A stretch of 64,000 bases of DNA from an uncultured Planctomycetales bacterium. GTDB lineage: Bacteria; Omnitrophota; Gorgyraeia; Zapsychrales; JBDRMG01. Position 1 is the stretch's first letter. Every line of letters starts with the position of its first letter. The translations under genes were made by a program, and so were the position numbers. The notes beneath the pieces were generated by a model. That model was given only the letters and a program-made list of their open reading frames with translations. It ran no database searches and was not told the origin of the DNA. This document shows positions 11,333 through 64,000 of the stretch, piece by piece. The stretch lies in the NCBI GenBank assembly GCA_964478715.1, contig CAYZIY010000003.1:6669-70668 (forward strand). The letters run 5' to 3'.

Positions 11333-11334
11333 CT

Positions 11335-13445: not shown

Positions 13446-13458
13446 TTGGGAGGTTTAT

Positions 13459-15688: not shown

Positions 15689-15761
15689 GAAAATCAATAA
15701 TAAAATTGTTTGGCTAAACTATAATTGATGATCCTTAAAAAGAAAAAGAGGCCATGTATTG

Positions 15762-18339: not shown

Positions 18340-18342
18340 ACT

Positions 18343-32993: not shown

Positions 32994-33451
32994 TATTTTT
33001 TTGCCAGAATAATTCCAAAGTTATTTATTTTGATGGCCCGAGCGTCGATTTCCTCAAGTTTTTCTTGAGCTTTCTGGTTAGATGAGAAATCCAAAAACAT
33101 ATATTCGTATTCGGTGGCTTCTTTAACCAGAACCGCCGGAGCCAGGGCGAATTGAGCCCGCAGAAAACGCTTCAGATATTTGGGCTTATTTAAATCATAA
33201 TCGGAAAGATATCCTATGTATTGTTGATCTTTGAGCTCTGTATCGAGCCCCGCGAAGCGAAGGCCCGGGAAATAAACCAGGTGCGGTTTATAGAGTTTGT
33301 GCCAGTCATTCTGTATGCGGGAGATAAAGTCAAGGAGATTAAGGAGGATTAAGACAATAAAGAGGGCAGTAAAGATTTTCCTTTGGTTTCCGATTTGTTT
33401 AAGCCAATTTAAAAAGGTGAAGAATTGCGACGTTATCTGCTTTCTGTTCAT
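32993..33451 (-). CDS. hypothetical protein with one TM segment, co-oriented and overlapping (ATGA) with the downstream membrane protein
   Basis: ORF only. Likely start MNRKQITSQFF... (the track extension to 33574 would overlap the divergent gene). Confidence 0.3.
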   Translation of the reverse strand: MNRKQITSQFFTFLNWLKQIGNQRKIFTALFIVLILLNLLDFISRIQNDWHKLYKPHLVYFPGLRFAGLDTELKDQQYIGYLSDYDLNKPKYLKRFLRAQFALAPAVLVKEATEYEYMFLDFSSNQKAQEKLEEIDARAIKINNFGIILAKK

Positions 33452-33563
33452 TCTTATTATTTTAGCACAAAGTGCGCTGAAAATGTAATTGTGAAATATC
33501 TCTTTAAAGCAGAGTCCATCATGGTTATAATACTGCCAGATTAAACAATGAAAAGATCGAAAG

Positions 33564-34586
33564 ATGTGCCACATGATTAAGATAGGAATTATCGGTTGCG
33601 GTTACTGGGGCCCGAATCATGTCCGGATATTCTCGCAACTGACTCAATCTGAAGTTGTTATGTGCGCTGATTCCAGTGTTGAAAGATTACAGTGGCTAAA
33701 AGGGCTCTATTCTCAGGTTCAAACAACGGAATATTATCAGGATATACTCAGCAATCCAGAAATCGAAGCGGTTGTTATCGCCACGCCTACCGAAACCCAT
33801 TATCAGATTTCGAAAGAAGCCCTTGAAGCCAATAAACATGTTCTTTGTGAAAAGCCTTTAAGTCTTCGCAGTCAGGAATGCCTTGATCTCGAGAAACTCG
33901 CCAAAAAAAATGAAAAAATTCTAATGGTCGGGCATATCTTTATTTTTCACCAGGGGATTCTTAAACTGAAGGAATATATCTCCCAAGGGGTGATTGGTCG
34001 CGTTCTTTATGCTCATTCCCAAAGAACCAATCTGGGACCGTTTCGCTACGATGTCAATGCTTTGTGGGATTTAGCCCCTCATGATGTGTCGATCTTCAAT
34101 TATTTGTTGGATGCGGCGCCTGTGCGCGCGTCGGCTTGCGGTCAAGAATATTTAGGCACGTCCCATGAAGATCTGGCTTTTGCCACTTTAGAGTATCCCG
34201 ATAATGTGTTAGTTAATATACACGTGAGCTGGTTGGATCCCCGGAAAGTTAGACGTCTGACTATTGTTGGAGATCAAAAAATGATGACCTGGGATGATCT
34301 TGATAATCTGGGTCCTATTAAGCTTTATGATAAGCATGTGCAGCGCACTAAAACATTTTATCAGACTTACGGAGAATTTCAGCTGCTCTCCAAAGAGGGC
34401 AGTATTACGATCCCTAATGTCAAAAATACCGAACCTTTAAAGACCCAGGCGATTTATTTTCTTGATTGCATTAATAATGGGCGGCAACCGGTACTTACCG
34501 ATGCGCAAAAAGCGCTGAGAGTCGTTAAGGCATTATCTGCCATTCAAAAATCGATACAACAAAAAGGGCAATCTGTAGATGTTTAA
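33564..34586 (+). CDS. Gfo/Idh/MocA-family NAD(P)-dependent sugar oxidoreductase (UDP-sugar dehydrogenase-like)
   Basis: N-terminal Rossmann IGIIGCGYWGPNHVRIF. EKP motif (LCEKPL). GFOR-family C-terminal domain. Confidence 0.8.
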   Translation: MCHMIKIGIIGCGYWGPNHVRIFSQLTQSEVVMCADSSVERLQWLKGLYSQVQTTEYYQDILSNPEIEAVVIATPTETHYQISKEALEANKHVLCEKPLSLRSQECLDLEKLAKKNEKILMVGHIFIFHQGILKLKEYISQGVIGRVLYAHSQRTNLGPFRYDVNALWDLAPHDVSIFNYLLDAAPVRASACGQEYLGTSHEDLAFATLEYPDNVLVNIHVSWLDPRKVRRLTIVGDQKMMTWDDLDNLGPIKLYDKHVQRTKTFYQTYGEFQLLSKEGSITIPNVKNTEPLKTQAIYFLDCINNGRQPVLTDAQKALRVVKALSAIQKSIQQKGQSVDV

Positions 34587-35159
34587 ATGGAGAAATCGAT
34601 GTCTGAGAAAGATTTTTGGCACCCTGTAGCGGTGATCGAACAAAATGCAAAAATCGGTTTCGGAACCAGGATATGGGCTTTTTCCAATATCAAAAGCGGT
34701 GCTTTTATTGGTAGCCATTGCAATATCTGTGATCATTGCTATGTCGAGGGGGGTGCTGTGATCGGTGATCGGGTAACGATCAAAAACGGAGTCAGCGTTT
34801 TTAAAGGCATCACCATAGAAGATGATGTTTTTTGCGGGACAAACGTTGTCTTTATCAACGATCGTAATCCTAGGAGCCGTAAAAAAGACTGGGTGCTGGA
34901 AAAGACAGTGGTGAAGAAGGGTGCCGCTATCGGAAGTAATGCGACGGTCCTTTGCGGTGTTACAATAGGTGAATATGCTCTCATTGGAGCCGGAAGCGTG
35001 GTGACAAGGGATGTCGCGGCGTATTCCGTTGTCGCAGGAAATCCGGCGCGTTTTAAAGGATTTGCCTGTGTCTGCGGTAAAACACTAAATGATACATTGA
35101 TCTGTTCCTGCGGCAGGATCTATAAGAAAAATGGACGAAATCTTACGCTTCAGAAGTAA
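34587..35159 (+). CDS. left-handed beta-helix (hexapeptide-repeat) sugar N/O-acetyltransferase (WbpD/NeuD-like) with a C-terminal Cys-rich tail
   Basis: Repeating [LIV]G..x..x hexapeptides (IGSHCNICDHCYVEGGAVIGDRVTIKNGVSV...). FINDRNPR motif. The tail CVCGKTLNDTLICSCGR is zinc-ribbon-like. Confidence 0.75.
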   Translation: MEKSMSEKDFWHPVAVIEQNAKIGFGTRIWAFSNIKSGAFIGSHCNICDHCYVEGGAVIGDRVTIKNGVSVFKGITIEDDVFCGTNVVFINDRNPRSRKKDWVLEKTVVKKGAAIGSNATVLCGVTIGEYALIGAGSVVTRDVAAYSVVAGNPARFKGFACVCGKTLNDTLICSCGRIYKKNGRNLTLQK

Positions 35160-35886
35160 AATTCTTATCTCACCCGTTGCTTTTAATGAATATATCAAAT
35201 TAAAAAATGTTATTAGCAGATTTTTACAATCTCCTTTTTATGGGCAAGTAGATTATCTGGTCGTCGATGACGGTTCTACAGATGAAACGCCGCAGATGAT
35301 TTGTTCTTTTGCCGATAGAGGCGTCAAGACTTTACGTCACGAAAAGCAGAGGGGCGTGGGAGCGGCCATTCGCAGCGTCATTGATTATGCTCGCGCTCAT
35401 AGTTATGACATTTTGGTAATTATGGCTGGGAATGATAAAGATAATCCCGATGAAATTGGCGATTTGATTGATCCTATCGAACAAGAGGGATTTGATCTGG
35501 TGCAGGGATCACGATATATCAAAGGAAACCGGGGAATCGGTGGTGATATGCCTTTTTATCGCAAGATAGCTACCCGCTTGCATCCGTTATTATTCTCTCT
35601 TTTTGTAGGCAAGAAAGTGACAGATTCGACTAATGGATTTCGGGCCATGCGCTTATCGCTTTTTGATGATGAGAGGATCAATATCAATCAGTCGTGGCTG
35701 GATCATTATGAACTGGAACCTTATATTCTTTTTAAAGCCATTTGTTTGGGATACCGGTATACCGAAGTTCCTGTTACTAAGATTTATCCGCCCAAGAAGC
35801 TCGGCGTGACCAAGATGCGACCGATTACCGGATGGTGGAGTATTCTCAAGCCTATTTTTTATCTGGGATTGGGAATTCGGAAATAA
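35131..35886 (+). CDS. GT2-family polyprenol-phosphate sugar synthase (DPM1/GtrB/ArnC-like)
   Basis: LVVDDGSTDETP (DXD-like). VQGSRYIKGNRGIGGDMPFYRKIATRL is the characteristic GSRY...R..S of Dol-P-Man/Und-P-sugar synthases. Only 251 aa, with no C-terminal TM. Confidence 0.6.
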   Translation: MDEILRFRSKILISPVAFNEYIKLKNVISRFLQSPFYGQVDYLVVDDGSTDETPQMICSFADRGVKTLRHEKQRGVGAAIRSVIDYARAHSYDILVIMAGNDKDNPDEIGDLIDPIEQEGFDLVQGSRYIKGNRGIGGDMPFYRKIATRLHPLLFSLFVGKKVTDSTNGFRAMRLSLFDDERININQSWLDHYELEPYILFKAICLGYRYTEVPVTKIYPPKKLGVTKMRPITGWWSILKPIFYLGLGIRK

Positions 35887-52619: not shown

Positions 52620-52770
52620 GAGCTTTGGCGAAGACGGGGGCTAAACCATCGCAAGATGGCGACGCAAAGTTAAGGGTCCTTGCATTTTCAAGGATAGCCT
52701 AACTGCCGAAACAAAGACAGCTAGACTAAATGAACCTATTCCTTGGTGCAGGAATAGGTTTTTTACTTTA
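52620..52770 (+). promoter_or_regulatory. candidate c-di-GMP-I (GEMM) riboswitch with an intrinsic-terminator expression platform
   Basis: GGGGGCUAAACC, then hairpin CCAUC-GCAA-GAUGG (GNRA loop), then CGACGCAAAG, then a second hairpin GGUCCUUG-CAUUUUC-CAAGGAU, then AGCC. This parallels the Vibrio Vc2 aptamer ...GGGCAAACCAUUCGAAAGAGUGGGACGCAAAGCC... Followed by terminator CCTATTCC-TTGGTGCA-GGAATAGG TTTTTT (52735-52764). Confidence 0.5.
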
Positions 52771-52789
52771 AATACCCAACGGAGACAAA

Positions 52790-52987
52790 ATGGATAGTTT
52801 TGTTATGACTGAAGAACAAATTCATGAATGGGTTAATCGGATGCAAATAAATAAAAGAAAGCCTTTTCTTCATGATAAGGATTTTCAAATAAAAGCTTGG
52901 CAGATTCATCAAAATTATTGCATGTTTGAAAGGAAGGCAGGGGTTTTGAAAATAACCCCTGTTTTTTTATGTGGGAGGCAAACATGA
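52790..52987 (+). CDS. small ORF (65 aa) translationally coupled (ATGA) to the giant adhesin gene
   Basis: GGAGA ribosome-binding site 5 nt upstream. Stop TGA 52985-87 overlaps ATG 52984 of the giant ORF. No recognisable motif. Confidence 0.3.
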   Translation: MDSFVMTEEQIHEWVNRMQINKRKPFLHDKDFQIKAWQIHQNYCMFERKAGVLKITPVFLCGRQT

Positions 52988-55900
52988 AAAAAACATTTCC
53001 CTATCTTTTGGCATTCTTAATGGCTTTATGGAGTCCAGCTAAGGGCTTCTCATTGGAAATCACCCATGTTTCCGGTTGTGCTGAGGTCGATACAGATTAT
53101 CAATGTGTTGAAATCGCCAGTTGTCAAGATCTTACTCAATCTAACACATATTATTTGCTGGCGGACGATATTGTTACCGGTGGAACGTGTTTTACCAATC
53201 ACGTCAGCAATATTCACTTGGATCTTAACAGCTATACCGTCAGTTATGCTCAGACGGAACCGGGACATGCCTTTTATGAACAATGGTCTAATCGGGATAA
53301 TGTTACGATTGAAAATGGCTTCATGATTGGCGGCTATCAGAACAATAGTCACGCTCTTTATTGGGTTACAGACGGATCAGACAACCTTGTCATTCGCAAT
53401 TTGAGCTTAAGCGTTGCCGGGGTCGAGACAAGCGGTATTAAAATCGGTACGGGCAATAATCTTGAGATTCATCATGTGAATATTGAAATGGATTCAGATA
53501 AAGCCGATCCATGCTCTCATTATGGAGAACCGATCGCTGGCATAAGCCTCGCTCATCGTGGAGGCGATATTGATATTCACCATAACTTTGTGACTGGAAC
53601 CGGAATGACTGGAATTGTCACTTCCAGCTGCGGGACCTATACCGAACCTCTAGAAATTCACAACAACTATATTAGTACATGGAGTCCGGTCAGGGACGGT
53701 TATGCTATTGGGATTTCGGGTACTAATAATAGCTGCTCGGACGGAACATTGATTTACGATAATACGATCAATCAACAAAACGGCCGAGGGATTATTGTTG
53801 ATGGATGGACCGGCAATGAATCTTACGGACCGGGAAATATCGAAATGTACGGCAATCATATTACGGTCAAAGAAGGGTGGGACTGCGAATATGATCGACC
53901 AGGTACAGCCGCAGGCATCCGACTAAGGTTTGGTGCTCATGATGTCTATGCGCACGACAATGAGATTTACGGTTTGGCCGGCACAGGTGTAGCTGTGGGA
54001 TCAGAGCCAGGTAAAGATGGAGCCACCGCCATTGGAATTTATTCGGGAAGCAGTCTTCCTTACGGGCTCAATAATCGATTTGAGAATAATTATGTGGAGG
54101 TTTCCACCAATGATGCCCGTTATCCGGCTATTGGCCTTTATGTCGCCGGAGGAGATCAAAATACCTCAGCGGCTTTTTCCCAGTTTTTAAACAATACTAT
54201 CGTTAGTAATAACAAACCGATCAGGATTGGATATAGCGATGGAGGAGGGTCTCAGGCCGATTTTGACTCCAACACCATTGTTCGTGGAGATAATCCCTTA
54301 GATTTTCATACCTACACGGTTGGATACTGGATTTTCGGTGCGCATCATATCGATTTTCTTGATTCGATCGTTGAAGGAGGCGCTAGCGCTCAGGATATTG
54401 TTTTTGACAGCGCCTGCGAAGGATCGTGCGCGAATTATGAAAATATCACCTTATCCTGGACTCTAAATTTGCAAGTTGAAAATAGTGGTGCCAATAGGAT
54501 TGAGGGAGCCAGTGTGCAAATCACAGATTCTGATAACCAAATAGTGGCTCAAGGTCAGACGGACGCACAGGGTCTGTTTAGTCAGACTCTAGTTGAGAAA
54601 AGCTTTGAGGGTATTCTTCAACCCGATGAGTTTATTCATACGCCTCATGAAATTCAAATTGAAAAAGCCGGTTATCAGACATATTCAGATTCGCTTGTCA
54701 TGGATTCAACAAAAACAGTGATTGTCAATCTTCAGGAAGGAAGTTCGAATCAGGCGCCCATTCTTGAACCTCTTACGGAATGGTCTGTCTTTACTGGTGA
54801 GAGTATTGAAATACTTGTCTCGGCTATAGATCCTGATAATGATCCTATAGAGCTTAGCGCTTCAACACTTCCTAGCGGAGCCCAATTCTTAGATTATGCA
54901 AACGGGACTGGAATTTTTAGCTGGATTCCTTCCGTGGATGGACTTTATTCGATCAGCTTCACAGCATCCGACGGTTATCTAAGTGATATAGAAACGTTAC
55001 AGATTGCCGTTCTTGCAGGCGCACCAGAAGGCAATCAGGCTCCCGTCTTATCTGAAATCAGCGATCAAACGGGGTACCCTTTTGAGCTTTTGACGTTTGA
55101 GGTGACAGCTACCGACTCTGATGATGATCTCTTAACTTATTGGGCCGAGAATCTTCCCAATGGAGCCGATTTTATGGATCAGACATTCATCTGGTTTCCC
55201 GATGATACTCAATTAGGTACTCACACAATAACGTTTTTTGTCAGCGATGGGGAATATACAGATTCCCAAGATGTAACAGTGACCATTCAAGACAGCGCCG
55301 GATGCGTTTATCCTCAGACGTATCCGCATCCCGACGGCTCATGCCGTGTGTTGCCGCATATTAATGTGGCCGGGGTATCTTATAGCAATCCTGATACAGA
55401 CCAAGAATATGACTGGCGAGTAGAGCATTATGATCTTCTCCTTTTTACTTTTGGGTCCTATGTTCTCGATGAATTTATTGGCGTTAAAGAAAGGTCGCCA
55501 GGATTGGTTTCTCTTAGATATGACAATATGCATTCTCACATCATGTATCACGATAGAAAAATGAATGCACTGGATGATTGGATTGAGAATCACCCAGAAT
55601 ATGGAGTTTTTGAAGATTATTTTCTTCATTATAAATATGATTGTATTCAAGCTGGAATTGAAAGAAAAGGCTGGAATCCCGATGAGGATTTGAATGTCAA
55701 TCACATTAGAGATGGTTATGAAGCAAACCCACAAACAGATCCTATTGATCCAAACCGCAGCGCTGACTTCAAGCATGAAAGCAGAATAATGACCAGATAT
55801 AACCGGACAGATCGTGTTTTTGCTAATGTGGGGCATGCTGGCTATCAAGCTTTTAATGCGCAATTTTCTTATGATGAAGTTCATACAGCCGATGTTCCAA

Positions 55901-58900
55901 GCATTGGCTATGATTTTGATGGAATGTTTGTGGATAATACAAATACTTATGCTTTTATGTGGGACAGTGTTCCAGACAATGAAGTTTTAGAATATCCGGA
56001 TGATCCTCAAAGAGAAGAAGATTGGCATGAGGATATGGTTGAAACTTTTGCTGCCGTCAAGGCCCAATTAGCTGATAAAAAACTCTATATTAATACGATA
56101 TATTTTCATCTTCCACAATACTTCCCAGTCACCGACGGTGATTTTAAGGAATATGTTATTCACGGCCGTTCTAGTATGGGAGGCGGCGAACCTTATTATA
56201 TGCATTTGGCAAGATTGGCAACAGAAGCAGAGCAATATTCTGTGTTAACAGTAGCTAATTATACTGATGAAAGCGGAAATCCGTTATATACGTTTTCAGA
56301 AGATAGGTATAAAATTTTCACCTTAGCCCAATATTATTTATTGCATAGTCCTTATACGTACTTTAACTATCAGGTAGGAAATACCTCATGGAATCATGAC
56401 TTACATGCGCAGTGGTTTGAGGCGATGGGATACAATATTGGAATTCCTATTGGTGATGAGTATATTTATGCCACAGATAATCAACCTAATGGGCAGGCCG
56501 CTGTCTATGCGCGGGAATTCACCAATGGGCTTGTTTTGGCAAAATTCAAACCGAATTGGGTGAATGACTTTGATCAACCATCGACGCATGATTTAGGCGG
56601 AAGCTATAAGCTTTTGGGTGTCGATGGATCTCTGGGGCCGGTGATCAATCAAATCACTTTGCGCAATTCACAAGCTGCTATTCTGATTCCTGCGAGCAGT
56701 GGCGGTGAAAATTACCCACCAGTTCTACAGCCAATCGGAAACAGAGAAGTGCTGGAAGGAGCCACACTTAACTTTAGTGTCTCGGCGAGTGATCCCAATG
56801 GAGATGTTCTTACCTATACAGCCGAAAATATTCCCGCGGGTTCAAATTTCTCGAATCAAACATTTACCTGGACACCGGGCTATGATCAAGCCGGAACTTA
56901 CTCTGTGAATTTTATTGTCAGTGACGGGGAATTAAGCGACAGTGAACAGATCCAAATCGCCGTTGTCGATAATGATCCTGATACCCAAGCGCCGTCAATT
57001 CCTCAGAATTTTACTGCCCAGGCTTTGTCAGGTGTCCAAGTGCAGCTAACTTGGGAGGTGTCAACAGATAATGTAGGCGTTACAGGCTATCATATTTACC
57101 GCGATGGAGCTGAAGTAGCAACTACGACAACAACGTCTTACCTTGATTCAAGCCTGGAGCAGTTAACGAGATATTCATACGAAATCTCTGCTTATGACGC
57201 AAGCGGAAATGAATCTGCGCTCTCAGATGCAGTCGATGTCACAACGCCTGGAACAACGACCGTCGAAGTGATCGGTTTAGTTCGAGAAGATTGCAGTGGA
57301 TATTCCAATTGCTATTCATCATTGACTCAGTGGGAGTCCAGCTATGGCGGCGTAGATTTTGGATCTTGCCCCCACGGTGATCTAGTCTGCGCTGATGCGG
57401 TGGCCATAGCGCAGATAGACGGCATTTGGAATAGTCCCGAAACCGGCCGAGTTGTGATCGACGGATGGACAACAGACGAGGATCATTATATCAAGATTTT
57501 TACTGCCCCTGAAGCCAGACATGACGGCAAATGGAACGAATCAAAATATCGCCTGGAAGGCTCTCATCTGTGGACACCCATTCTTCAAGTCAGTGAAGAT
57601 TATGTGGTTATCGATGGCCTGCAAATATTCAATAGCGCTACTCAAAATCAACCGGTGGGTGTTGTGATTGATAACCGTTCTACATTAGGAGGGGATGTTC
57701 GTATTAAAAATAATATTATACGATTTCCCAAAGAGGTTTTGCCGTATCAGGCTGGCATTACGCTAAGGATTGATCCTCAGACAACGGTAAAAGTTCTAAA
57801 CAATATCATTATCAATCCCTACGATGGTATTTCGGCCGCTCCCTGGAGCGGAGATAAAGGAACGTATGTGATTTATAATAATACTCTTGTCGACCCCAAG
57901 CGGTATGGGATTCAGTGCGCCTTTGAAGGCAGCGGTCAGGGCGCCCTTTTACTTAAGAACAATCTCGTTCAGGGTATCAATACTAATTATGATATTTATG
58001 GATCCTCAAATCTTAATCTCTTTGAGCACGCGGCTAATATTTCGGAAGATGCCTCATCGCCTGACGATGCGCTCAGAAACAAACAGGCTCTGTTCGTTGA
58101 GGAAGCTCTCGATGATTTTCATCTTTCCGAAAGCGATATCACAGCTAAGGACATGGGTGTGGATTTAAGCAATAATAGTTACGCTCCCTTTGACAATGAT
58201 ATTGACGGTGAAAATCGAGCATCACTTTGGGATATCGGCGCGGATGAGTATGTTTCTTCTGCTGTCAATCATCCGCCGGTTCTAGAAACGATCGATCCCC
58301 AGGAAGGCTTTATCGGTGATCCGATTATTTTTGAGGCGACAGCGACAGATCCCGATGGGGATGTCTTGAACTATTCGGCGACCGGACTTCCAGCTGGAGC
58401 GATTTTTGAGAATCAGGTTTTCAGCTGGACTCCTGACGAGACCCAAGAGGGTCAACATCAAATAACTGTTACGGTTGACGATGGAGATCTTGATGATTCT
58501 CAAGTGGTTTCTATTACCGTTGTTGGGATTAATGATCCTCCGATTCTTGAGCCAATCGGCAACAAAATTGTGAACGAAGGCGAGGAATTAAGTTTTACCA
58601 TCAATGCTATGGATCCGGATGAAGACGGTATTCTTTTGACTATCTCGACCGAGATCCCGGATGTTGTTCTTACAGATAATGGAAACGGCACAGCTGATTT
58701 CAGCTGGATACCTGGCTATGATCAAGCCGGCAGTTATCAAGCGACCTTTAACGCTCAGGATGAAGGCGGCTTAACAGATCAAGAGACAATCACCATTGAA
58801 GTCTATGGAACAAACCGGCCGCCTGAAATTGATCAGATCTCGGATCAAACAATTAATGAGGGAGAGGAGCTTATTTTTGATGTAATGGCTATAGATCCTG

Positions 58901-61900
58901 ATGATGACGGAATTCTTCTTAGCATGAGCGGCTTGGACGATGCTTCCTTTGTTGATTACGGCGATGGCTCAGGAACCTTTAGCTGGAGTCCAGATTTTAC
59001 TCAATCAGGTAATTATCAGGCGGTCTTTACAGCCCAGGACGATGGGGGTTTGAGTGATCAGGTTCAGGTTAGCATTCAGGTTGTTAATGTCAACCAGCCC
59101 CCAATCCTTGATCCTGTTGGCGATCAATCCGTGAATGAAGGCCAATTTCTCGACATCACTCTCAGCGCTATTGATCCTGACGGAGAAACACTGATTTACT
59201 CGGCTGCTGATCTTCCGCAAGGCGCCGCACTAATCGAGAATCAATTAACCTGGACGCCTACGTATGATCAATCCGGTTCTTATCCGGTCACCTTAAGAGT
59301 TGAAGACTTAGGGGGTCTGATTGATTCTGAGACAATAACGATTACCGTTGATCACATCAACAGAGCTCCTATTCTTGATCCCATCGGTAACCATCAGGTG
59401 GCTGAAGGCAATACAATATCGATTACGTTGAGTGCTTTTGATCCAGATGGAGATCTTTTAAACTATCATGTACGCAATGAGCCTCAAGGGGCAAGTCTGA
59501 TAGGTCACGTCTTTAGCTGGACGCCTGGTTACTCAGATGCCGGAAATTATGAAGTGACTTTTAGTGTAGATGATGGACAGCTGAATGATATTGAGGAAAT
59601 TATTATTAGCGTTGGAAATATAAATCGGCCTCCGGAATTTGATATCATCAGCCCTCAGGTCGTGGATGAAAATCAGATCTTGTTGTTCATGCTGAGCGCT
59701 TCAGATCCCGATGGCGACAATTTGATTTACAATTCCATCGGCTTACCGATAGGTTCTTCTTTTGATTCAGCAACCAAAGAATTTACATGGACGCCCGATT
59801 ATGATCAGGCAGGTACTCATGTTGCAGAATTCAGTGTGACCGATGGAGATCTTAGCGATACTCTCACCGTCGAGATTGCTGTAATGGATGTCAACAGGAC
59901 ACCAACCCTCGAACCTTTGCAGGCAGAATATAGCGTTAATGAAAACGAAGTCTTCATCATTTCCTTGGATGCCTCTGATCCTGATCAGGATGCTTTAAGC
60001 TTGACCATGCAGCCGGCTTTAGAGGGCGCTAGAATTGATAATCAAATACTAAGTTGGCTGCCGAGCTTTGAGCAAGCCGGCGTTTATGAAGTGACCTTTA
60101 CGGTGAGTGATGGAGATCTTTCTGACCAGCAAACGACAACGCTCATTGTTAACAATATCAACCGGGCTCCGGTCTTTGAACCCATCGGTAACCAGGAAGT
60201 TGAGGAAGGAGAGAGCCTTTCCATAATTCTCAACGCTTCTGACCCCGATGGAGACGATTTGACATTTACTTCATCTGATTTACCGGACGGTTCTTCGATT
60301 GGCGGAGAAAACGGAAATATCTTTCTCTGGTCTCCCACGCATACCCAGTCAGGAGTTTATGAGGTGACCATAACGGTTACCGATTCACAACTCACTGGTT
60401 CACAGATGAGTGAGATAACTGTTGTAAATATCAATCGGGCACCTGTTCTTGATCCTATCGAAAATCAATCGATTCAGGAAGGGGAAACGCTGGAAATCCA
60501 GCTTTCAGGAACGGATCCCGACGGAGATGCACTGACATACTCAGCTTCCAATCTTCCCGAAGGCGCTAATTTCTCAAGCGCAAGCGGACTTTTTCAATGG
60601 ACACCAACATTTGATCAAAACGGAACTTACATACTTATTTTTGTTGTCAGTGATGGTGAATTAACTGATTCTCAAGAGGCAACGTTGACAGTGATTAATA
60701 ATAACCGGATACCTTCTTTAGATCCTATCGGGCCCAAAGAAGTCCATGAAAACTCAAATCTCACCTTTCAGATCAATGGATCAGATCCTGATGGGGATAG
60801 CTTGCAGTTTACAGCCAAGCAACTTCCTGAAGGAGCGAACTTCACAAATCAGATATTCAGCTGGACTCCAAATTATGATCAGGAAGGGGAATACTTTGTC
60901 ACCTTTACAGTAGATGATGGACAGCTCTCTGATTCTGAAGAAATCTTTATCACTGTCTATGGATCCAACAGAGCTCCTGTCTTGGATCCAATTGGAGATA
61001 GAACGGTTGACGAGGGAGATCTTTTAACTTTTACAGTCACAGCCACTGATCCTGACGGTCATCCTTTAACGTACTCAGCTTCTAATCTTCCAGAAGGCGC
61101 TACCTTTGCAAATCAAGCTTTCAGCTGGACTCCTGACTTTGGTCAATCTGGAAGTTATGAGGTCACTTTCACCGTGATGGATACTAGTGAGCTTCTCATT
61201 CTGGATGATTCAGAGACAATCACGATTACAGTCAATGATGTGAATCGGGCACCTGTGCTGGATCCCATAGGAAATCAATCGATTCAGGAAGGGGAAACGC
61301 TGGAAATCCAGCTTTCGGGAACGGATCCCGACGGAGATGTATTGACATACTCGGCTTTAGGTCTTCCTGAAGGCGCTGACTTCTTTGAAGACTTAGGGCT
61401 GTTTACTTGGACACCAACCTTCGGAGAGCAAGGAATCTACACTTTATCTTTTATTCTCAGCGACGGTTCTTTGACTGACGAAGAGTCTATTTCTATTTCT
61501 GTTGGCAATGTGAATCAACCACCTGTTTTAGACCCTATTGATGATCAGGCAGTTTTAGAGGGAGAACAGATCAGCATCCAGCTTGCCGCCAGCGATCCGG
61601 ATGGACAGACATTAATCTATTTCGCAGAAAATCTTCCTCAGGGAGCTGATCTTTTATCGGAGAATGGTTTGTTTGAATGGATTCCCGGATTTGATCAGTC
61701 GGGTGAGTATATTGTTACCTTGGGCGTGACAGACGGAGTATTAGAAGATACACAGGATGTCATTTTGACGATCACCAATGTCAATCGCGCGCCTCAAATC
61801 AGCCCTGTTGAACAACAGGAAGTTCATGAGAATCAAAATCTAAGCTTCTCTATTACTGCGGATGATCCCGACGGGGATATCATAACCTATTCGGCTCAGG

Positions 61901-64000
61901 GATTACCCAGCGGAGCTCAGTTTACGGATCAAACTTTCAATTGGACCCCTGATTATGAGCAGAAAGGAACCTATCAGGTAGGTTTTACGGCCAGTGATGG
62001 TGAGCTGTCAGGTTCAATGACCGTTACGATAATTGTCTATGGAACCAATCGGCCGCCGGTTTTAAGTCCGATCCACGATCAAATCATTGAGGAGGCCGAT
62101 TTATTATCCTTCGATGTTATAGGCAGTGATCCCGATGGAAATTCTCTTAGTTACAGAGCTTCGGGTTTGCCTCAAGGGGCCATCTTTGAAAACCAGGTCT
62201 TCAGCTGGATTCCGACATATGATCAAGCTGGAAGCTATGAGGTTACCTTTACGGTTATGGATACCAGTGAATTAATGGTTCTGGAAGACAGCGAGACGAT
62301 CACTATCACCGTTGTCAATGTCAATCGAGCACCGGTTTTGGAGTCAATCCCTAATCAGGAAATAGAAGAAGGGCAGCAGCTTACTTTTAGTATCGCGGCC
62401 ACAGATCCTGATGATGATTCCTTAACATTCACTGCTGGAGATTTACCGCAGGGTGCTCAGTTTGAAAATCAAATCTTCAGTTGGATTCCCGCAAATGAGC
62501 AAGTCGGAGTCCATGAGGTTACTTTTAATGTCAGCGATGGAGCATTGTCTGATTCCCAAACAATTTCGATTGTCGTTACAGAAATTGTCATACCACCGGA
62601 AAATCATCCGCCGGTTCTTGATCCTATCGGGAATAAGGAGATGGACGAAGGCCAGCAATTGAGTTTTGTTGTCACCGCTTCTGATCCTGATGGAGATCAG
62701 CTGATGATTTCTGCTTCTCATATTCCCTTCGGCGCACAATTTAACGAACAATCCGGTCTATTTGAATGGACACCCTCTTATGAGCAGGCCGGAGAATATC
62801 AAATAACTTTTATAGTATCGGACGGTCAGTTGCGCGATTCAGAAGCCATCACAATTAATGTAAGAGACGTGAATCTTGCACCGATTTTGGAACCCATTGG
62901 TGACAAAAGAGTTGAAATCAGAACAGAACTCAGCTTTCAAGTAATGGGTTTAGATCCAGACAATGATTCGCTATCCTATTCTGTCAATGGTTTGCCGCAG
63001 GGAGCCAAATTCAAAAATCAATTATTCCGCTGGAAACCATCCAAAGAACAGGTAGGCCAGTATCAACTGGAATTCTTTGTCAGCGATGGCCAGTTGCGGG
63101 ACAGCGAGATGATTCAAATTAATGTGTATGAAACCAATACTGATCCTAGCGAAAATCAGCCGCCTATTTTAGATGCCATTGGCAATAAAACTGTCGCGGC
63201 CGAAGATTTGCTCAGGTTTCGTATTAAATCGATAGATCCCGACGGAGATCTCTTGATTCTGGTCGTTCGCGATTTGCCTGCTGGTGCGTCAATGGATGAT
63301 GATCTCTTTCAATGGAGACCCACAGACGATCAAGTCGGACAATATTTCGTCACATTTATTGTCACCGAAGGGGTTTATGACGAATCGGGGGTGCTGATTG
63401 CCGCTGATGGTGCTTATAGTGATCAGGAGACTGTTAAGATCAAGGTCTTTAAAGGGGAGCAACCGCAGCCGCGTTCAACGGAGAACGAAACACAGATACT
63501 GGAAGGTGAATCAGGCCAGGATTCGGCAAATGGGACGGATGGTGATGATCTGTCTCAAACGTCATCCTATTATGGGGGTTTAGCGTATATAGTTTCCGAT
63601 GACAATGAAAAACAAGAGATGACCCTCCAGCAATCAGACAAAACAGCAAAGGGAAATTCTGCAAAAAGCAAAACTAGAAAGAATAACAGAGCGCCTGTCA
63701 TTTTGACCAATGATCAAACAGAACTGGAAGAGGGAACACAAGCAGTCATTCAGGTTTTTGCCAGCGATCCTGACCAGGATTCTTTGGTTCTTTCAACAGA
63801 AGAACTGCCCTTGGGAGCCGTATTTGTGGATCGGGGCGATGGCATCGGAGAGATTGTTTGGAATCCTTATGATGATCAGGTGGGTGAGCATACAATCAAT
63901 GTGATTGTGACAGACGGCCAGGTTCAGGACACAAAAAGCATCAATTTTATGATCAATAAGGCCAGTGATGCCCCAGATGAAGGGAATTTGCCTGAGGAAT
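52984..64000 (+). CDS. giant secreted multi-domain surface protein (adhesin-like), 5' portion of >3,670 codons: signal peptide, beta-helix, CarboxypepD_reg-like, cadherin-like repeats, unknown ~470-aa domain, FN3, second beta-helix, >=21 further cadherin-like (He_PIG/dystroglycan-type) repeats. The 3' end is outside the window.
   Basis: Frame 1 is open from ATG 52984 (GGGAGG ribosome-binding site 8 nt upstream) to the window end. I translated line-by-line and found no stops. Signal peptide MKKTFPYLLAFLMALWSPAKG. Repeats of the form N[RQ][AP]P.[LI][DE]PIGN..V.EGE.L.F...A.DPDGD.L.Y.A..LP.GA.F....F.WTP...Q.G.Y.V.F.V.DG.L.D. FN3 consensus ...GYHIYRDGAEVATTTTTSY...YSYEISAYDASGNES. Absent from the supplied ORF track because no stop codon occurs in the window. 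Confidence 0.85.
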   Translation, partial: MKKTFPYLLAFLMALWSPAKGFSLEITHVSGCAEVDTDYQCVEIASCQDLTQSNTYYLLADDIVTGGTCFTNHVSNIHLDLNSYTVSYAQTEPGHAFYEQWSNRDNVTIENGFMIGGYQNNSHALYWVTDGSDNLVIRNLSLSVAGVETSGIKIGTGNNLEIHHVNIEMDSDKADPCSHYGEPIAGISLAHRGGDIDIHHNFVTGTGMTGIVTSSCGTYTEPLEIHNNYISTWSPVRDGYAIGISGTNNSCSDGTLIYDNTINQQNGRGIIVDGWTGNESYGPGNIEMYGNHITVKEGWDCEYDRPGTAAGIRLRFGAHDVYAHDNEIYGLAGTGVAVGSEPGKDGATAIGIYSGSSLPYGLNNRFENNYVEVSTNDARYPAIGLYVAGGDQNTSAAFSQFLNNTIVSNNKPIRIGYSDGGGSQADFDSNTIVRGDNPLDFHTYTVGYWIFGAHHIDFLDSIVEGGASAQDIVFDSACEGSCANYENITLSWTLNLQVENSGANRIEGASVQITDSDNQIVAQGQTDAQGLFSQTLVEKSFEGILQPDEFIHTPHEIQIEKAGYQTYSDSLVMDSTKTVIVNLQEGSSNQAPILEPLTEWSVFTGESIEILVSAIDPDNDPIELSASTLPSGAQFLDYANGTGIFSWIPSVDGLYSISFTASDGYLSDIETLQIAVLAGAPEGNQAPVLSEISDQTGYPFELLTFEVTATDSDDDLLTYWAENLPNGADFMDQTFIWFPDDTQLGTHTITFFVSDGEYTDSQDVTVTIQDSAGCVYPQTYPHPDGSCRVLPHINVAGVSYSNPDTDQEYDWRVEHYDLLLFTFGSYVLDEFIGVKERSPGLVSLRYDNMHSHIMYHDRKMNALDDWIENHPEYGVFEDYFLHYKYDCIQAGIERKGWNPDEDLNVNHIRDGYEANPQTDPIDPNRSADFKHESRIMTRYNRTDRVFANVGHAGYQAFNAQFSYDEVHTADVPSIGYDFDGMFVDNTNTYAFMWDSVPDNEVLEYPDDPQREEDWHEDMVETFAAVKAQLADKKLYINTIYFHLPQYFPVTDGDFKEYVIHGRSSMGGGEPYYMHLARLATEAEQYSVLTVANYTDESGNPLYTFSEDRYKIFTLAQYYLLHSPYTYFNYQVGNTSWNHDLHAQWFEAMGYNIGIPIGDEYIYATDNQPNGQAAVYAREFTNGLVLAKFKPNWVNDFDQPSTHDLGGSYKLLGVDGSLGPVINQITLRNSQAAILIPASSGGENYPPVLQPIGNREVLEGATLNFSVSASDPNGDVLTYTAENIPAGSNFSNQTFTWTPGYDQAGTYSVNFIVSDGELSDSEQIQIAVVDNDPDTQAPSIPQNFTAQALSGVQVQLTWEVSTDNVGVTGYHIYRDGAEVATTTTTSYLDSSLEQLTRYSYEISAYDASGNESALSDAVDVTTPGTTTVEVIGLVREDCSGYSNCYSSLTQWESSYGGVDFGSCPHGDLVCADAVAIAQIDGIWNSPETGRVVIDGWTTDEDHYIKIFTAPEARHDGKWNESKYRLEGSHLWTPILQVSEDYVVIDGLQIFNSATQNQPVGVVIDNRSTLGGDVRIKNNIIRFPKEVLPYQAGITLRIDPQTTVKVLNNIIINPYDGISAAPWSGDKGTYVIYNNTLVDPKRYGIQCAFEGSGQGALLLKNNLVQGINTNYDIYGSSNLNLFEHAANISEDASSPDDALRNKQALFVEEALDDFHLSESDITAKDMGVDLSNNSYAPFDNDIDGENRASLWDIGADEYVSSAVNHPPVLETIDPQEGFIGDPIIFEATATDPDGDVLNYSATGLPAGAIFENQVFSWTPDETQEGQHQITVTVDDGDLDDSQVVSITVVGINDPPILEPIGNKIVNEGEELSFTINAMDPDEDGILLTISTEIPDVVLTDNGNGTADFSWIPGYDQAGSYQATFNAQDEGGLTDQETITIEVYGTNRPPEIDQISDQTINEGEELIFDVMAIDPDDDGILLSMSGLDDASFVDYGDGSGTFSWSPDFTQSGNYQAVFTAQDDGGLSDQVQVSIQVVNVNQPPILDPVGDQSVNEGQFLDITLSAIDPDGETLIYSAADLPQGAALIENQLTWTPTYDQSGSYPVTLRVEDLGGLIDSETITITVDHINRAPILDPIGNHQVAEGNTISITLSAFDPDGDLLNYHVRNEPQGASLIGHVFSWTPGYSDAGNYEVTFSVDDGQLNDIEEIIISVGNINRPPEFDIISPQVVDENQILLFMLSASDPDGDNLIYNSIGLPIGSSFDSATKEFTWTPDYDQAGTHVAEFSVTDGDLSDTLTVEIAVMDVNRTPTLEPLQAEYSVNENEVFIISLDASDPDQDALSLTMQPALEGARIDNQILSWLPSFEQAGVYEVTFTVSDGDLSDQQTTTLIVNNINRAPVFEPIGNQEVEEGESLSIILNASDPDGDDLTFTSSDLPDGSSIGGENGNIFLWSPTHTQSGVYEVTITVTDSQLTGSQMSEITVVNINRAPVLDPIENQSIQEGETLEIQLSGTDPDGDALTYSASNLPEGANFSSASGLFQWTPTFDQNGTYILIFVVSDGELTDSQEATLTVINNNRIPSLDPIGPKEVHENSNLTFQINGSDPDGDSLQFTAKQLPEGANFTNQIFSWTPNYDQEGEYFVTFTVDDGQLSDSEEIFITVYGSNRAPVLDPIGDRTVDEGDLLTFTVTATDPDGHPLTYSASNLPEGATFANQAFSWTPDFGQSGSYEVTFTVMDTSELLILDDSETITITVNDVNRAPVLDPIGNQSIQEGETLEIQLSGTDPDGDVLTYSALGLPEGADFFEDLGLFTWTPTFGEQGIYTLSFILSDGSLTDEESISISVGNVNQPPVLDPIDDQAVLEGEQISIQLAASDPDGQTLIYFAENLPQGADLLSENGLFEWIPGFDQSGEYIVTLGVTDGVLEDTQDVILTITNVNRAPQISPVEQQEVHENQNLSFSITADDPDGDIITYSAQGLPSGAQFTDQTFNWTPDYEQKGTYQVGFTASDGELSGSMTVTIIVYGTNRPPVLSPIHDQIIEEADLLSFDVIGSDPDGNSLSYRASGLPQGAIFENQVFSWIPTYDQAGSYEVTFTVMDTSELMVLEDSETITITVVNVNRAPVLESIPNQEIEEGQQLTFSIAATDPDDDSLTFTAGDLPQGAQFENQIFSWIPANEQVGVHEVTFNVSDGALSDSQTISIVVTEIVIPPENHPPVLDPIGNKEMDEGQQLSFVVTASDPDGDQLMISASHIPFGAQFNEQSGLFEWTPSYEQAGEYQITFIVSDGQLRDSEAITINVRDVNLAPILEPIGDKRVEIRTELSFQVMGLDPDNDSLSYSVNGLPQGAKFKNQLFRWKPSKEQVGQYQLEFFVSDGQLRDSEMIQINVYETNTDPSENQPPILDAIGNKTVAAEDLLRFRIKSIDPDGDLLILVVRDLPAGASMDDDLFQWRPTDDQVGQYFVTFIVTEGVYDESGVLIAADGAYSDQETVKIKVFKGEQPQPRSTENETQILEGESGQDSANGTDGDDLSQTSSYYGGLAYIVSDDNEKQEMTLQQSDKTAKGNSAKSKTRKNNRAPVILTNDQTELEEGTQAVIQVFASDPDQDSLVLSTEELPLGAVFVDRGDGIGEIVWNPYDDQVGEHTINVIVTDGQVQDTKSINFMINKASDAPDEGNLPEE
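58264..63426 (+). repeat. tandem array of ~270-282-nt coding repeats (about 19 consecutive cadherin-like domain units), then a low-complexity linker and a further unit from 63694
   Basis: Unit boundaries (NRAPVLDPIGN-type) at ~58264, 58540, 58812, 59092, 59365, 59626, 59893, 60166, 60436, 60706, 60973, 61246, 61513, 61783, 62053, 62323, 62611, 62878 and 63160. Units 60436-60700 and 61246-61510 share ~90-nt near-identical DNA. Confidence 0.8.

What the first reader, a model, noticed from the sequence alone, without database searches (positions are those of the whole stretch)
55290..56700. Unassigned ~470-aa domain embedded between cadherin-like repeats of the giant protein (possible enzymatic module)
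Between the second and third cadherin-like units lies a Trp/Tyr/His-rich region with no internal repeats: ...VAGVSYSNPDTDQEYDWRVEHYDLLLFTFGSY...NMHSHIMYHDRKMNALDDWIENHPEYGVF...YFHLPQYFPVTDGDFKEYVIHGRSSMGGGEPYYMHLARLA...NYQVGNTSWNHDLHAQWFEAMGYNIGIPIGDE... The composition is typical of a TIM-barrel or glycoside-hydrolase-like catalytic domain, not a structural repeat. An adhesin carrying a built-in glycan-active domain would be unusual.
Basis: inference. Interest (0 to 1): 0.55.

Follow-up and report, generated by a model that had tools for sequence, protein, structure and literature searches.

The report
Divergent GH168-like glycosidase domain, giant protein
The unassigned stretch is a genuine TIM-barrel glycoside-hydrolase domain, a distant and uncharacterised cousin of the GH168 fucan-cutting enzymes that keeps both catalytic acids, and it is built into a 3,759-residue repeat-rich surface protein of an Omnitrophota-like bacterium whose gene lies behind a c-di-GMP riboswitch.

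Summary
Window 55291-56703 encodes residues 770-1240 of one ORF (ATG 52984; 3,759 aa in full). The stretch is non-repetitive, Tyr/His-rich, and lies between the second and third Ig/cadherin-like units. Pfam GHL15 matches above threshold, though weakly and partially. An exhaustive search finds 366 homologues (best 34% identity). An alignment-based AlphaFold model (pLDDT 90.8) is a (β/α)8 barrel plus a C-terminal β-sandwich. Its best PDB matches are all GH168 endo-α-1,3-fucanases, and profile-profile probability against GH168 is 98.8%. The GH168 nucleophile and acid/base align with D984 and E1056, which are about 98% conserved in the domain's own family. It is not a typical GH168. The invariant Glu-Lys "polar knuckle" is missing, about 75 residues are inserted between β2 and β3, the C-terminal domain is larger, and the barrel is very acidic (pI 4.6, against a median of 8.3 in the GH168 set). 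No sulfatase or polysaccharide-utilisation genes are nearby. The most likely reading is an active retaining glycosidase of an uncharacterised sister clade, with unknown and probably non-sulfated substrate, displayed on a surface protein. GH domains in large Omnitrophota proteins are already reported, so interest is moderate.

The parts
52629..52710 (+). c-di-GMP-I riboswitch aptamer in the leader of the giant gene
   Evidence: Rfam RF01051, 59.6 bits (gathering 35), E about 4e-11, full-length model match.
52732..52767 (+). Terminator-like hairpin plus U-run directly after the aptamer (putative expression platform)
   Evidence: 12-bp stem found by the terminator scan. It is also the dominant stem in the MFE and centroid folds.
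52984..63999 (+). Giant ORF (aa 1-3672 of 3759; runs off the window). Order: signal peptide, β-helix-like region, CarboxypepD_reg-like, 2 Ig-like units, GH domain, Ig-like unit, fn3, second β-helix-like region, about 19 Ig/cadherin-like repeats
   Evidence: Identity to P0001.
54748..55287 (+). Ig/cadherin-like units 1 and 2 (aa 589-768) flanking the domain on its N-terminal side
   Evidence: Pfam Big_9 4.8e-13, He_PIG 1.2e-9, Cadherin_5 1.4e-7.
55291..56703 (+). The finding: GHL15/GH168-superfamily glycoside-hydrolase domain (aa 770-1240)
   Evidence: Pfam GHL15 35.2 bits. 366 homologues. AF2 pLDDT 90.8, pTM 0.91. Foldseek top hits are GH168. hhalign 98.8%.
55360..56457 (+). (β/α)8 catalytic barrel (aa 793-1158)
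   Evidence: Secondary-structure order in the AF2 model and alignment to the GH168 barrel.
55528..55785 (+). Clade-specific insertion between β2 and β3 (aa 849-934), carrying conserved E877, H882 and R934; absent from GH168
   Evidence: The hhalign gap leaves about 75 query residues unaligned between about aa 871 and 945. pLDDT is 92-97 there. Conservation is E 62/69, H 67/71, R 76/80.
55933..55935 (+). GAT codon of D984 (domain D215), predicted catalytic nucleophile at the end of β4 in motif FDGMFVD
   Evidence: Aligns with D180 of Fun168E and Asp167 of MeGH168 (PMC12210190). D in 79/81 homologues. Codon checked.
56149..56151 (+). GAA codon of E1056 (domain E287), predicted general acid/base on β6 in motif DGDFKEY
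   Evidence: Aligns with E250 of Fun168E and Glu237 of MeGH168. E in 87/88 homologues. Codon checked.
56458..56694 (+). C-terminal β-sandwich subdomain (aa 1159-1237), with near-invariant R1177
   Evidence: AF2 strands 391-467. R408 is R in 89/91 homologues and aligns with the invariant R368 of GH168.
56716..57234 (+). Ig-like unit 3 (aa 1245-1327) and fn3 (aa 1339-1417) flanking the domain on its C-terminal side
   Evidence: Pfam He_PIG 5.6e-19, Big_9 4e-15, fn3 1.9e-5.

Best explanation
Residues 770-1240 form a catalytically competent, retaining glycoside-hydrolase domain of the GHL15/GH168 (β/α)8-barrel superfamily. It belongs to a small, uncharacterised sister clade rather than to the GH168 sulfated-fucan endo-1,3-fucanases proper. 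Inferred mechanism: double displacement, with D984 (end of β4) as nucleophile and E1056 (β6) as general acid/base. Y846, N848, N1037 and W1144 would line the -1 subsite as in GH168. The clade-specific β2-β3 insertion (E877, H882, R934) would replace the missing GH168 Glu-Lys 'polar knuckle' and so change which sugar and linkage is recognised. The barrel is strongly acidic and no sulfatases are nearby, so the substrate is more likely a neutral or cationic α-linked glycan than a sulfated fucan. Candidates are a matrix, capsule or host/prey envelope polysaccharide. The domain lies in the N-terminal 'head' of a Sec-exported 3,759-aa protein, whose roughly 19 C-terminal Ig/cadherin-like repeats would act as an extended stalk. 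The gene follows a c-di-GMP-I riboswitch, so enzyme and stalk are probably produced under c-di-GMP control, during surface or host attachment. Shown: fold, homology, conservation of the catalytic pair, domain architecture, riboswitch. Inferred: activity, stereochemistry, substrate class, role of the insertion, stalk geometry, direction of riboswitch control.
For: Pfam GHL15 scores above the gathering threshold. An exhaustive phmmer search finds 366 homologues, 94 of them at E<=1e-10. The AF2 model built on 92 sequences has pLDDT 90.8 and shows a (β/α)8 barrel plus β-sandwich. The top 12 Foldseek PDB hits are all GH168 (E 6.5e-16 to 8e-12, TM 0.63-0.69 on the target), followed by GH13, GH66, GH31 and GH36. 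The family profile hits GH168 chains at E 6e-17 to 1e-13, and hhalign gives 98.8% over 279 columns. D984 and E1056 align with catalytic residues confirmed by mutagenesis (PMC12534559; PMC12210190) and are conserved in 79/81 and 87/88 homologues. The -1 subsite equivalents N1037 (84/87), W1144 (87/92) and Y846 (62/67) are also conserved. Homologues carry CBM4_9, dockerin, fn3 and T9SS tails, which are typical of secreted carbohydrate-active enzymes. Against fucanase specificity: E77/K78 of GH168 align with T822/F823, and those columns are variable in the clade. The barrel has pI 4.6 and net charge -35, and the clade median pI is 4.9, against 8.3 for the GH168 set. The riboswitch scores 59.6 bits and is followed by a terminator-like hairpin. 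GH domains and c-di-GMP links in large Omnitrophota proteins have precedent. The nearest Ppk1 relatives are Omnitrophota MAGs.
Against: No enzyme of this clade has been characterised, so activity and substrate are inference only. Identity to GH168 is 12-17%, and a pairwise search against the PDB finds nothing. Model coordinates could not be inspected, so the spatial proximity of D984 and E1056 and the shape and charge of the cleft are unverified. The global pI is only a crude proxy for cleft electrostatics. This particular domain departs from its own clade at two usually aromatic positions near β3: W to N940, and W/Y/F to V945. That could weaken substrate binding. A second terminator-like hairpin lies about 20 nt upstream of the start codon, so the riboswitch-to-gene link is not straightforward. 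The window has no neighbouring carbohydrate-utilisation genes that would hint at a substrate.
Confidence: 0.6

Rival explanations
1. It is a bona fide GH168 endo-α-1,3-L-fucanase that cleaves sulfated fucan or fucoidan, merely very divergent in sequence.
For: GH168 structures are the best structural and profile matches. The catalytic pair is retained, as are the GH168 -1 subsite residues that contact the 2-O-sulfate, namely Y-x-N (Y846/N848), plus N1037 and W1144 (PMC12534559). GH168 is internally very diverse, down to 18% identity (PMC11685898).
Against: The strictly conserved Lys 'polar knuckle' (K66A is inactive) and the adjacent Glu are replaced by F823 and T822. GHL15 scores 35 bits over a partial profile, whereas true GH168 proteins score 179-210 bits over the full length. 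The barrel has net charge -35, whereas GH168 needs a positively charged crevice. No sulfatases, fucosidases or PUL genes occur in 53 kb upstream. Homologues occur in archaeal-type, phage-like and non-PUL contexts.
Confidence: 0.1
2. The barrel is a catalytically inactive, lectin-like carbohydrate-binding module. It would serve the giant protein purely as an adhesive head.
For: It is embedded in an adhesin-like repeat protein. This copy has lost two aromatic residues that are conserved in its clade (N940, V945). It has no close orthologue, with the best match at 34% identity. Both features are compatible with relaxed or altered function.
Against: All near-invariant polar residues of the clade, including the nucleophile and the acid/base, are retained in this copy. 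Inactive GH-derived lectins usually lose at least one catalytic carboxylate.
Confidence: 0.12
3. It is a cell-wall (peptidoglycan or pseudomurein-type) glycan hydrolase used to breach prey or host envelopes. This is analogous to the GHL10 domain of the C. difficile S-layer protein Cwp19 and to the proposed role of giant Omnitrophota proteins.
For: The family profile also hits Cwp19 (E 2.9e-5), which lyses M. luteus cells (PMC5765458). Omnitrophota giant proteins with GH domains are proposed to degrade prey cell walls. One homologue is phage-encoded, one carries PG_binding_1, and close homologues occur on archaeal-type and small-genome-like contigs.
Against: Cwp19 is far more distant than GH168. 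The barrel families with a β4 Asp nucleophile that match best act on α-linked glycans, whereas peptidoglycan is β-1,4-linked. There is no direct evidence. This rival overlaps with the best explanation, since it is one possible substrate class.
Confidence: 0.15

Closest known systems
CAZy GH168 endo-α-1,3-L-fucanases (Fun168A/D/E, WfGH168_II, MeGH168, Rho5174, PbFucA; PDB 8YA6, 9JOC, 9JOM, 9JOS, 9NHF, 9F9V, 8RG3)
   Same: (β/α)8 barrel followed by a C-terminal β subdomain. Asp nucleophile at the end of β4 in a DG-x-F-x-D motif, and Glu acid/base on β6. Conserved Y-x-N (β2), Asn (β5), Trp (after β8) and Arg in the C-terminal subdomain. hhalign probability 98.8%, Foldseek E down to 6.5e-16.
   Different: Only 12-17% identity, and no pairwise hit. 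Lacks the invariant Glu-Lys polar knuckle. Has about 75 extra residues between β2 and β3, carrying its own conserved E/H/R. The C-terminal β-sandwich is about 80 aa rather than 3-4 strands. The barrel is acidic rather than basic. It is not in a fucoidan PUL. It is embedded in a 3,759-aa repeat protein rather than being a 370-420-aa stand-alone enzyme.
Pfam PF14885 GHL15 (Naumoff's hypothetical glycoside hydrolase family 15, now represented by GH168)
   Same: The domain scores above the gathering threshold (35.2 against 27).
   Different: The match covers only profile positions 86-270 of 271. True GH168 proteins score 179-210 bits over positions 1-270. Only 21 of 92 members of the domain's own clade reach E<=1e-3.
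Cwp19 of Clostridioides difficile (GHL10 TIM-barrel glycosidase fused to cell-wall-binding repeats)
   Same: A GHL-type TIM-barrel hydrolase carried by a surface-displayed, repeat-containing protein. There is weak profile similarity (E 2.9e-5).
   Different: It belongs to a different GHL family, is much more distant, has peptidoglycan-lytic activity, and is a much smaller protein (PMC5765458).
Giant Omnitrophota proteins ('Archaeovorins') with embedded glycosyl hydrolase, peptidase and GGDEF domains
   Same: The same phylum is inferred (Ppk1 62% identical to Omnitrophota MAGs). A very long ORF mixes enzymatic modules, and there is a link to c-di-GMP signalling.
   Different: Those proteins are 30,000 aa or longer with different domain sets (GT, methyltransferase, NUDIX, SecA-like). 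This one is 3,759 aa, has a Sec signal, is dominated by He_PIG/Big_9 repeats, and its c-di-GMP link is a riboswitch rather than PilZ or GGDEF.
c-di-GMP-I riboswitch-controlled surface adhesins (e.g. B. thuringiensis CbpA; C. difficile surface proteins)
   Same: A GEMM-I aptamer followed by a terminator-like hairpin lies upstream of a large surface-protein gene (PMC7423583, PMC6200980).
   Different: The phylum differs. The regulated protein carries a glycosidase domain. A 65-codon ORF and a second terminator-like hairpin lie between the aptamer and the gene.

Membership tests
Pfam GHL15 (PF14885) | Score at or above the curated gathering threshold | tested here: met
   35.2 bits against the 27-bit cut-off, E 1.7e-8, but only profile positions 86-270 of 271. 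GH168 controls P0154 and P0177 score 179 and 210 bits over the full length.
CAZy GH168 | (β/α)8 barrel with a small C-terminal β subdomain packed on the barrel | tested here: met
   The AF2 model (pLDDT 90.8) shows the barrel strands plus a β-sandwich at 391-467. Foldseek TM is 0.63-0.69 normalised on GH168 targets. The subdomain here is larger, at about 80 aa.
CAZy GH168 | Strictly conserved Asp (β4, nucleophile) and Glu (β6, acid/base) | tested here: met
   D984 aligns with D180 (Fun168E) and Asp167 (MeGH168). E1056 aligns with E250 and Glu237. They are conserved in 79/81 and 87/88 members of the clade. Spatial proximity was not checked because no coordinates were accessible.
CAZy GH168 | Strictly conserved Lys 'polar knuckle' (K66 of WfGH168_II) with adjacent Glu after β1, described as a most distinctive family trait (PMC12534559) | tested here: not met
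   The invariant E77/K78 of the GH168 alignment A2 align with T822/F823. The corresponding clade columns are variable (G/N/A, G/P/T, D/H/P), with no conserved Lys or Arg within ±3 positions.
CAZy GH168 | Conserved -1 subsite residues Y99, N101, N218, W332 (WfGH168_II numbering) | tested here: met
   Y846, N848, N1037 and W1144 align with Y109, N111, N226 and W344 of Fun168E. Within the clade the counts are Y 62/67, N1037 84/87 and W 87/92, but the N848 position is Asn in only 23/65.
CAZy GH168 | Significant direct sequence similarity to a characterised member (basis of CAZy assignment; dbCAN GH168 HMM) | tested here: inconclusive
   phmmer of the domain against all PDB chains, including 8 distinct GH168 sequences, gave no GH168 hit at E<=10. 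Only profile-level methods connect them. The dbCAN/CAZy HMM is not available here.
CAZy GH168 | Positively charged substrate crevice suited to a polyanionic sulfated fucan | tested here: inconclusive
   Only global charge could be computed. The barrel has pI 4.6 and charge -35, and the clade median pI is 4.9. The GH168 set has median pI 8.3. The cleft electrostatics were not computed.
CAZy GH168 | Endo-α-1,3-L-fucanase activity on sulfated fucan | not testable with these tools
   This requires enzymology.
GH114 / GH166 (Ega3, PelA hydrolase domain) exopolysaccharide α-1,4-galactosaminidases | Detectable sequence-profile similarity to solved members | tested here: not met
   The clade profile against the PDB gives PelA E 1.6 (not significant) and no Ega3 or Sph3 hit. 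The 'GH114 TIM-barrel' names in the hit list are automatic names of GH168 proteins.
Rfam RF01051 c-di-GMP-I riboswitch (leader of the gene) | Covariance-model score at or above gathering, with a full-length aptamer | tested here: met
   59.6 bits against 35, model positions 1-87 of 87, with conserved GACGCAAAG and CUGCCGAA segments. Ligand binding was not tested.

The most novel reading that the evidence does not exclude
The domain and its roughly 366 relatives form a new glycoside-hydrolase family, sister to GH168. In it, a structured β2-β3 insertion (conserved Glu/His/Arg) replaces the GH168 Glu-Lys polar knuckle and retargets the barrel from sulfated fucan to a neutral or cationic cell-surface or matrix glycan. 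In this Omnitrophota-like bacterium the domain would be the cutting head of a c-di-GMP-riboswitch-controlled stalked surface protein, used to attach to and breach a host, prey or biofilm glycan layer.
Probability: 0.3. Interest if true: 0.6.

Novelty: new variant of a known kind. Interest (0 to 1): 0.4.

Why it matters
If the domain is active, it opens an uncharacterised clade of TIM-barrel glycosidases. The clade has about 366 cluster representatives among 1.84 billion proteins. Its members come from uncultivated bacteria, an archaeal-type contig and a phage-like contig. Its only characterised relatives are the fucoidan-degrading GH168 enzymes, and it lacks their hallmark substrate-recognition residue. 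Defining its substrate would extend the GH168/GHL15 sequence-function map. It would also give a concrete biochemical handle on what the large repeat-rich surface proteins of Omnitrophota do. These organisms are uncultured and suspected of host-dependent or predatory lifestyles. The c-di-GMP riboswitch in front of the gene offers a testable regulatory link between second-messenger signalling and display of a surface enzyme. If the domain instead proves to be an ordinary fucanase or an inactive lectin, the finding is routine domain annotation.

Tried and rejected
- Single-sequence AlphaFold gave an unusable model (pLDDT 30).
- The word-indexed homology search with the domain found nothing. With the family alignment it found only 3 proteins.
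- phmmer of the domain against PDB sequences gave only noise, MYG1 at E 0.4. NCBIfam gave no hit and PHROGs none.
- The Foldseek BFVD viral library returned only generic TIM-barrel glycosidases at low TM.
- The search for related loci with the family alignment failed because there was no sufficiently conserved stretch. With the single domain it found no relative in GTDB representative genomes.
- Exact-sequence contig look-ups for the window's HflX, for P0001 and for P0152 found nothing. The source genome and sample type therefore remain unknown, and taxonomy rests on Ppk1 similarity only.
- The two other non-repeat regions of the ORF (aa 22-500 and 1430-1770) gave no PDB sequence hit and no Pfam hit above threshold.
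- A halophile explanation for the acidity was considered and rejected, because cytoplasmic proteins of the window have pI 5.6-10.
- GH114/PelA-type membership was considered and rejected.
- A relaxed Rfam search of the leader found no second credible RNA family.

Full report
**Observation.** The window holds one very long open frame on the + strand, running from ATG 52984 to the window end. The start is preceded by GGGAGG and encodes MKKTFPYLLAFLMALWSPAKG, which resembles a signal peptide. The frame is identical to the first 3,672 residues of a 3,759-aa protein (P0001). That protein is known from a single NCBI contig of 162 kb and forms a singleton cluster. Pfam finds two Big_9/He_PIG/Cadherin_5 units directly before the stretch (aa 589-673 and 686-768). 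Directly after it come one more unit (aa 1245-1327) and an fn3. About 19 further such units fill aa 1760-3470. The stretch has no internal repeat and no similarity to the rest of the protein. It is enriched in Tyr (8.3% against 3.4%) and His (4.2% against 1.4%), but barely in Trp (1.7% against 1.3%). The antisense ORF at 55339-55884 matches no family.

**What the domain is.**
- Pfam GHL15 (PF14885, 'hypothetical glycosyl hydrolase family 15') matches at 35.2 bits against a cut-off of 27, covering only profile positions 86-270.
- NCBIfam, a pairwise search of PDB sequences and the word-indexed protein search found nothing.
- The exhaustive phmmer search of 1.84 billion cluster representatives found 366 proteins at E<=1e-3 and 94 at E<=1e-10. 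The best non-self match has only 34% identity.
- An alignment of the domain with 91 of these proteins (A1) turned an unusable single-sequence model (pLDDT 30) into a confident one (pLDDT 90.8, pTM 0.91).
- That model is a (β/α)8 barrel (about aa 793-1158) followed by a β-sandwich of about 80 residues (aa 1159-1237).
- Foldseek against the PDB puts twelve GH168 endo-α-1,3-fucanase chains on top (9JOS, 9JP3, 9F9V, 9JP2, 9JOC, 8YA6, 9JOF, 9JOG, 9NHF, 9JOO, 8RG5). Their E-values run from 6.5e-16 to 8e-12, TM is 0.63-0.69 on the target, and identity is 12-17%.
- GH13, GH66, GH31 and GH36 α-glycosidases follow in the Foldseek list.
- The A1 profile hits the same GH168 chains by sequence (E 5.8e-17 to 1e-13). 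It hits Cwp19 (GHL10, 2.9e-5) and GH66 more weakly, and PelA not significantly.
- I retrieved 243 GH168 proteins with a sequence reconstructed from the 9JOM alignment. All listed proteins are annotated PF14885, and they include the W. fucanilytica and Flagellimonas (Muricauda) eckloniae enzymes.
- An alignment of 25 of them (A2) compared with A1 by hhalign gives 98.8% probability, E 9.3e-17, 279 aligned columns and 15% identity.

**Catalytic machinery.** In GH168 the nucleophile is an Asp at the end of β4 and the acid/base is a Glu on β6. These are D172/E243 in WfGH168_II, where mutants are inactive (PMC12534559), and Asp167/Glu237 in MeGH168 (PMC12210190). Both the HMM alignments and hhalign place these on D984 (motif FDGMFVD) and E1056 (motif DGDFKEY) of the ORF. 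Within the domain's own clade these columns are Asp in 79/81 and Glu in 87/88 sequences. In the model D984 ends strand 211-215 and E1056 lies in strand 283-290. Further GH168 -1 subsite residues are also matched:
- Y846 and N848 (GH168 Y-x-N after β2);
- N1037 (β5, Asn in 84/87);
- W1144 (after β8, Trp in 87/92);
- R1177 in the C-terminal subdomain (Arg in 89/91, aligned to an invariant Arg of GH168).

**Why it is not an ordinary GH168.**
1. The Glu-Lys pair after β1 aligns with T822/F823, and those clade columns are variable. The Lys is the 'polar knuckle'. It is strictly conserved, K66A is inactive, and the authors describe it as among the most distinctive traits of the family. The pair is invariant E77/K78 in A2.
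2. About 75 residues between β2 and β3 have no GH168 counterpart. They are predicted with pLDDT 92-97 and carry clade-specific conserved E877, H882 and R934.
3. The C-terminal subdomain is an 80-residue sandwich rather than three or four strands.
4. True GH168 proteins score 179-210 bits over the whole GHL15 profile. This domain scores 35 bits and its closest relatives score 0-36 bits. Only 21 of 92 clade members reach E<=1e-3.
5. GH168 enzymes present a positively charged crevice to a polyanion, and the GH168 set has median pI 8.3. This barrel has pI 4.6 and net charge -35, and the clade median pI is 4.9. Cytoplasmic proteins of the window are not acidic, so this is not a genome-wide bias.
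6. The 53 kb upstream contain no sulfatase, fucosidase or polysaccharide-utilisation genes. They hold a phosphate regulon, TPR proteins, sensor kinases, MiaA, HflX and a small glycosyltransferase cluster.

**Homologues elsewhere.** Typical clade members are 450-900-aa proteins. Some carry DUF11, CBM4_9 (inserted between barrel and sandwich in P0005), Ig_Rha78A_N, fn3, dockerin, CHU_C/Por_Secre_tail or PG_binding_1. These are hallmarks of secreted carbohydrate-active enzymes. None of the top 150 hits exceeds about 2,000 aa, so embedding in a 3,759-aa repeat protein is exceptional within the clade. The genomic contexts I could read are varied:
- an archaeal-type contig carrying RNase P Rpp14 (P0003);
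- a bacterial contig of housekeeping genes (P0004);
- a marine-type contig without CAZyme neighbours (P0153);
- a phage-like contig where the homologue follows the large terminase (P0147).

One cultured organism, Photobacterium lutimaris, has a member annotated as hypothetical. None of these contexts looks like a fucoidan locus.

**Surroundings and regulation.** Ppk1 of the window is 62% identical to Ppk1 of two Candidatus Omnitrophota MAGs, which are its best matches among GTDB representative genomes. The domain itself has no relative there. A c-di-GMP-I riboswitch aptamer lies at 52629-52710 (59.6 bits against 35). It is immediately followed by a 12-bp terminator-like hairpin with a U-run (52732-52767). 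Next comes a 65-codon ORF with no family match (52790-52987), whose stop overlaps the giant ORF's start (ATGA). Inside its 3' end there is a second strong terminator-like hairpin (52938-52961 plus T7), just before the RBS. Riboswitch control of the giant gene is therefore likely but not simple. c-di-GMP riboswitches upstream of surface adhesins are known in Firmicutes (PMC7423583, PMC6200980). GH domains and c-di-GMP-related domains in giant Omnitrophota proteins have been described (bioRxiv 10.1101/2023.11.21.568195).

**Most likely mechanism.** Fold, homology and the conserved catalytic pair are shown. From the established behaviour of barrel glycosidases with a β4 Asp nucleophile (GH168, GH29, GH107 and GH151, and more distantly GH13, GH27, GH31, GH36 and GH66), I infer a retaining double-displacement hydrolase acting on an α-linked glycan. 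D984 would be the nucleophile and E1056 the acid/base. From the loss of the knuckle, the new conserved insertion, the acidity and the genomic context, I infer a substrate other than sulfated fucan. A neutral or cationic surface or matrix polysaccharide is the most plausible class. The domain lies in a roughly 1,760-residue N-terminal region. That region also holds two unassigned regions with β-helix-like sequence repeats; the only Pfam support is a sub-threshold Beta_helix match in the second one. The Ig-like repeat array behind it would serve as a spacer. This geometry and the biological role (attachment to, and local digestion of, a host, prey or biofilm glycan layer under c-di-GMP control) are hypotheses.

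**Rivals.** The first is a highly divergent true fucanase, which I rate unlikely because a defining residue is missing and the charge is wrong. The second is an inactive lectin-like barrel, also unlikely because every conserved catalytic and subsite residue is retained, although two clade-typical aromatics (N940, V945) are lost in this copy. The third is a cell-wall glycan hydrolase by analogy with Cwp19 and the Omnitrophota predation hypothesis. This is possible and is a special case of the main explanation.

**Verdict.** The domain is a new variant of a known kind: a peripheral member of the GHL15/GH168 superfamily that fails one defining GH168 feature. It sits in an unusual but not unprecedented host protein. 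Interest is moderate, because the fold and catalytic chemistry are conventional. What is open, and testable, is the substrate of an uncharacterised clade and its use by an uncultured phylum.

Noticed in passing
window 52629-52767 (+): A c-di-GMP-I riboswitch (RF01051, 59.6 bits) is followed by a 12-bp terminator-like hairpin and U-run, about 270 nt upstream of the giant ORF. This implies that c-di-GMP controls this surface protein in an Omnitrophota-like genome.
   Followed up: partly
window 52938-52968 (+): A second strong intrinsic-terminator-like element (CAGGGGTT-TTGAAAAT-AACCCCTG followed by TTTTTTT) lies only about 20 nt upstream of the 11-kb gene's start codon, just before its RBS. It is unexplained, and no Rfam family fits the 52760-52980 spacer.
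   Followed up: partly
window 52790-52987 (+): A 65-codon ORF (MDSFVMTEEQIHEWVNRMQINKRK...) lies between the riboswitch and the giant gene. Its TGA overlaps the giant ORF's ATG (ATGA), which suggests translational coupling. It has no Pfam match, and the second hairpin lies inside its 3' end, so its reality is uncertain.
   Followed up: partly
window 53047-54483 and 57271-58293 (+), ORF aa 22-500 and 1430-1770: Two further non-repeat regions of the same ORF show parallel-β-helix-like sequence repeats (N-x-I/V-x-x-N type). Only the second has any Pfam support, a sub-threshold Beta_helix match (23.2 bits against a cut-off of 25.9). There is no PDB sequence hit. They may be additional polysaccharide-binding or polysaccharide-cleaving modules.
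   Followed up: partly
L025 10001-11365 (phage-like contig, Logan SRR31323275): A 454-aa member of the same glycosidase clade (226 bits to the clade profile) is encoded right after a large terminase subunit on a phage-like contig. A neighbouring gene has a weak disaggregatase-repeat match. It may be a phage-borne glycan depolymerase.
   Followed up: partly
L026 4231-6318 / L027 687-2774: The third-best homologue (P0003, 30% identity) lies on contigs carrying archaeal-type RNase P Rpp14. The clade therefore appears to span bacteria, archaea and phages.
   Followed up: no
ORF aa 1761-3400 (window 58264-63183): The Ig/cadherin-like repeat array is extremely acidic (pI 4.05, net charge about -246, K+R 2.1%). 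Nearly every unit has a recurring D-P-D-G-D type motif, suggestive of Ca2+-dependent rigidification.
   Followed up: no
window 1-19428: The first 19 kb form a dense phosphate-homeostasis region. It holds exopolyphosphatase, polyphosphate kinase 1, a Na/Pi cotransporter-PhoU fusion, a PhoR/PnpS-like kinase, a porin, a pstS/C/A/B-like ABC transporter and a PhoU-LMW phosphatase fusion.
   Followed up: no
window 31659-35886: A small glycan-modification cluster is present: a PMT_2-type glycosyltransferase (- strand), a GFO/IDH/MocA oxidoreductase, a hexapeptide acyltransferase and a GT2. These are the only other carbohydrate-related genes in the window, 17 kb upstream of the giant gene.
   Followed up: no
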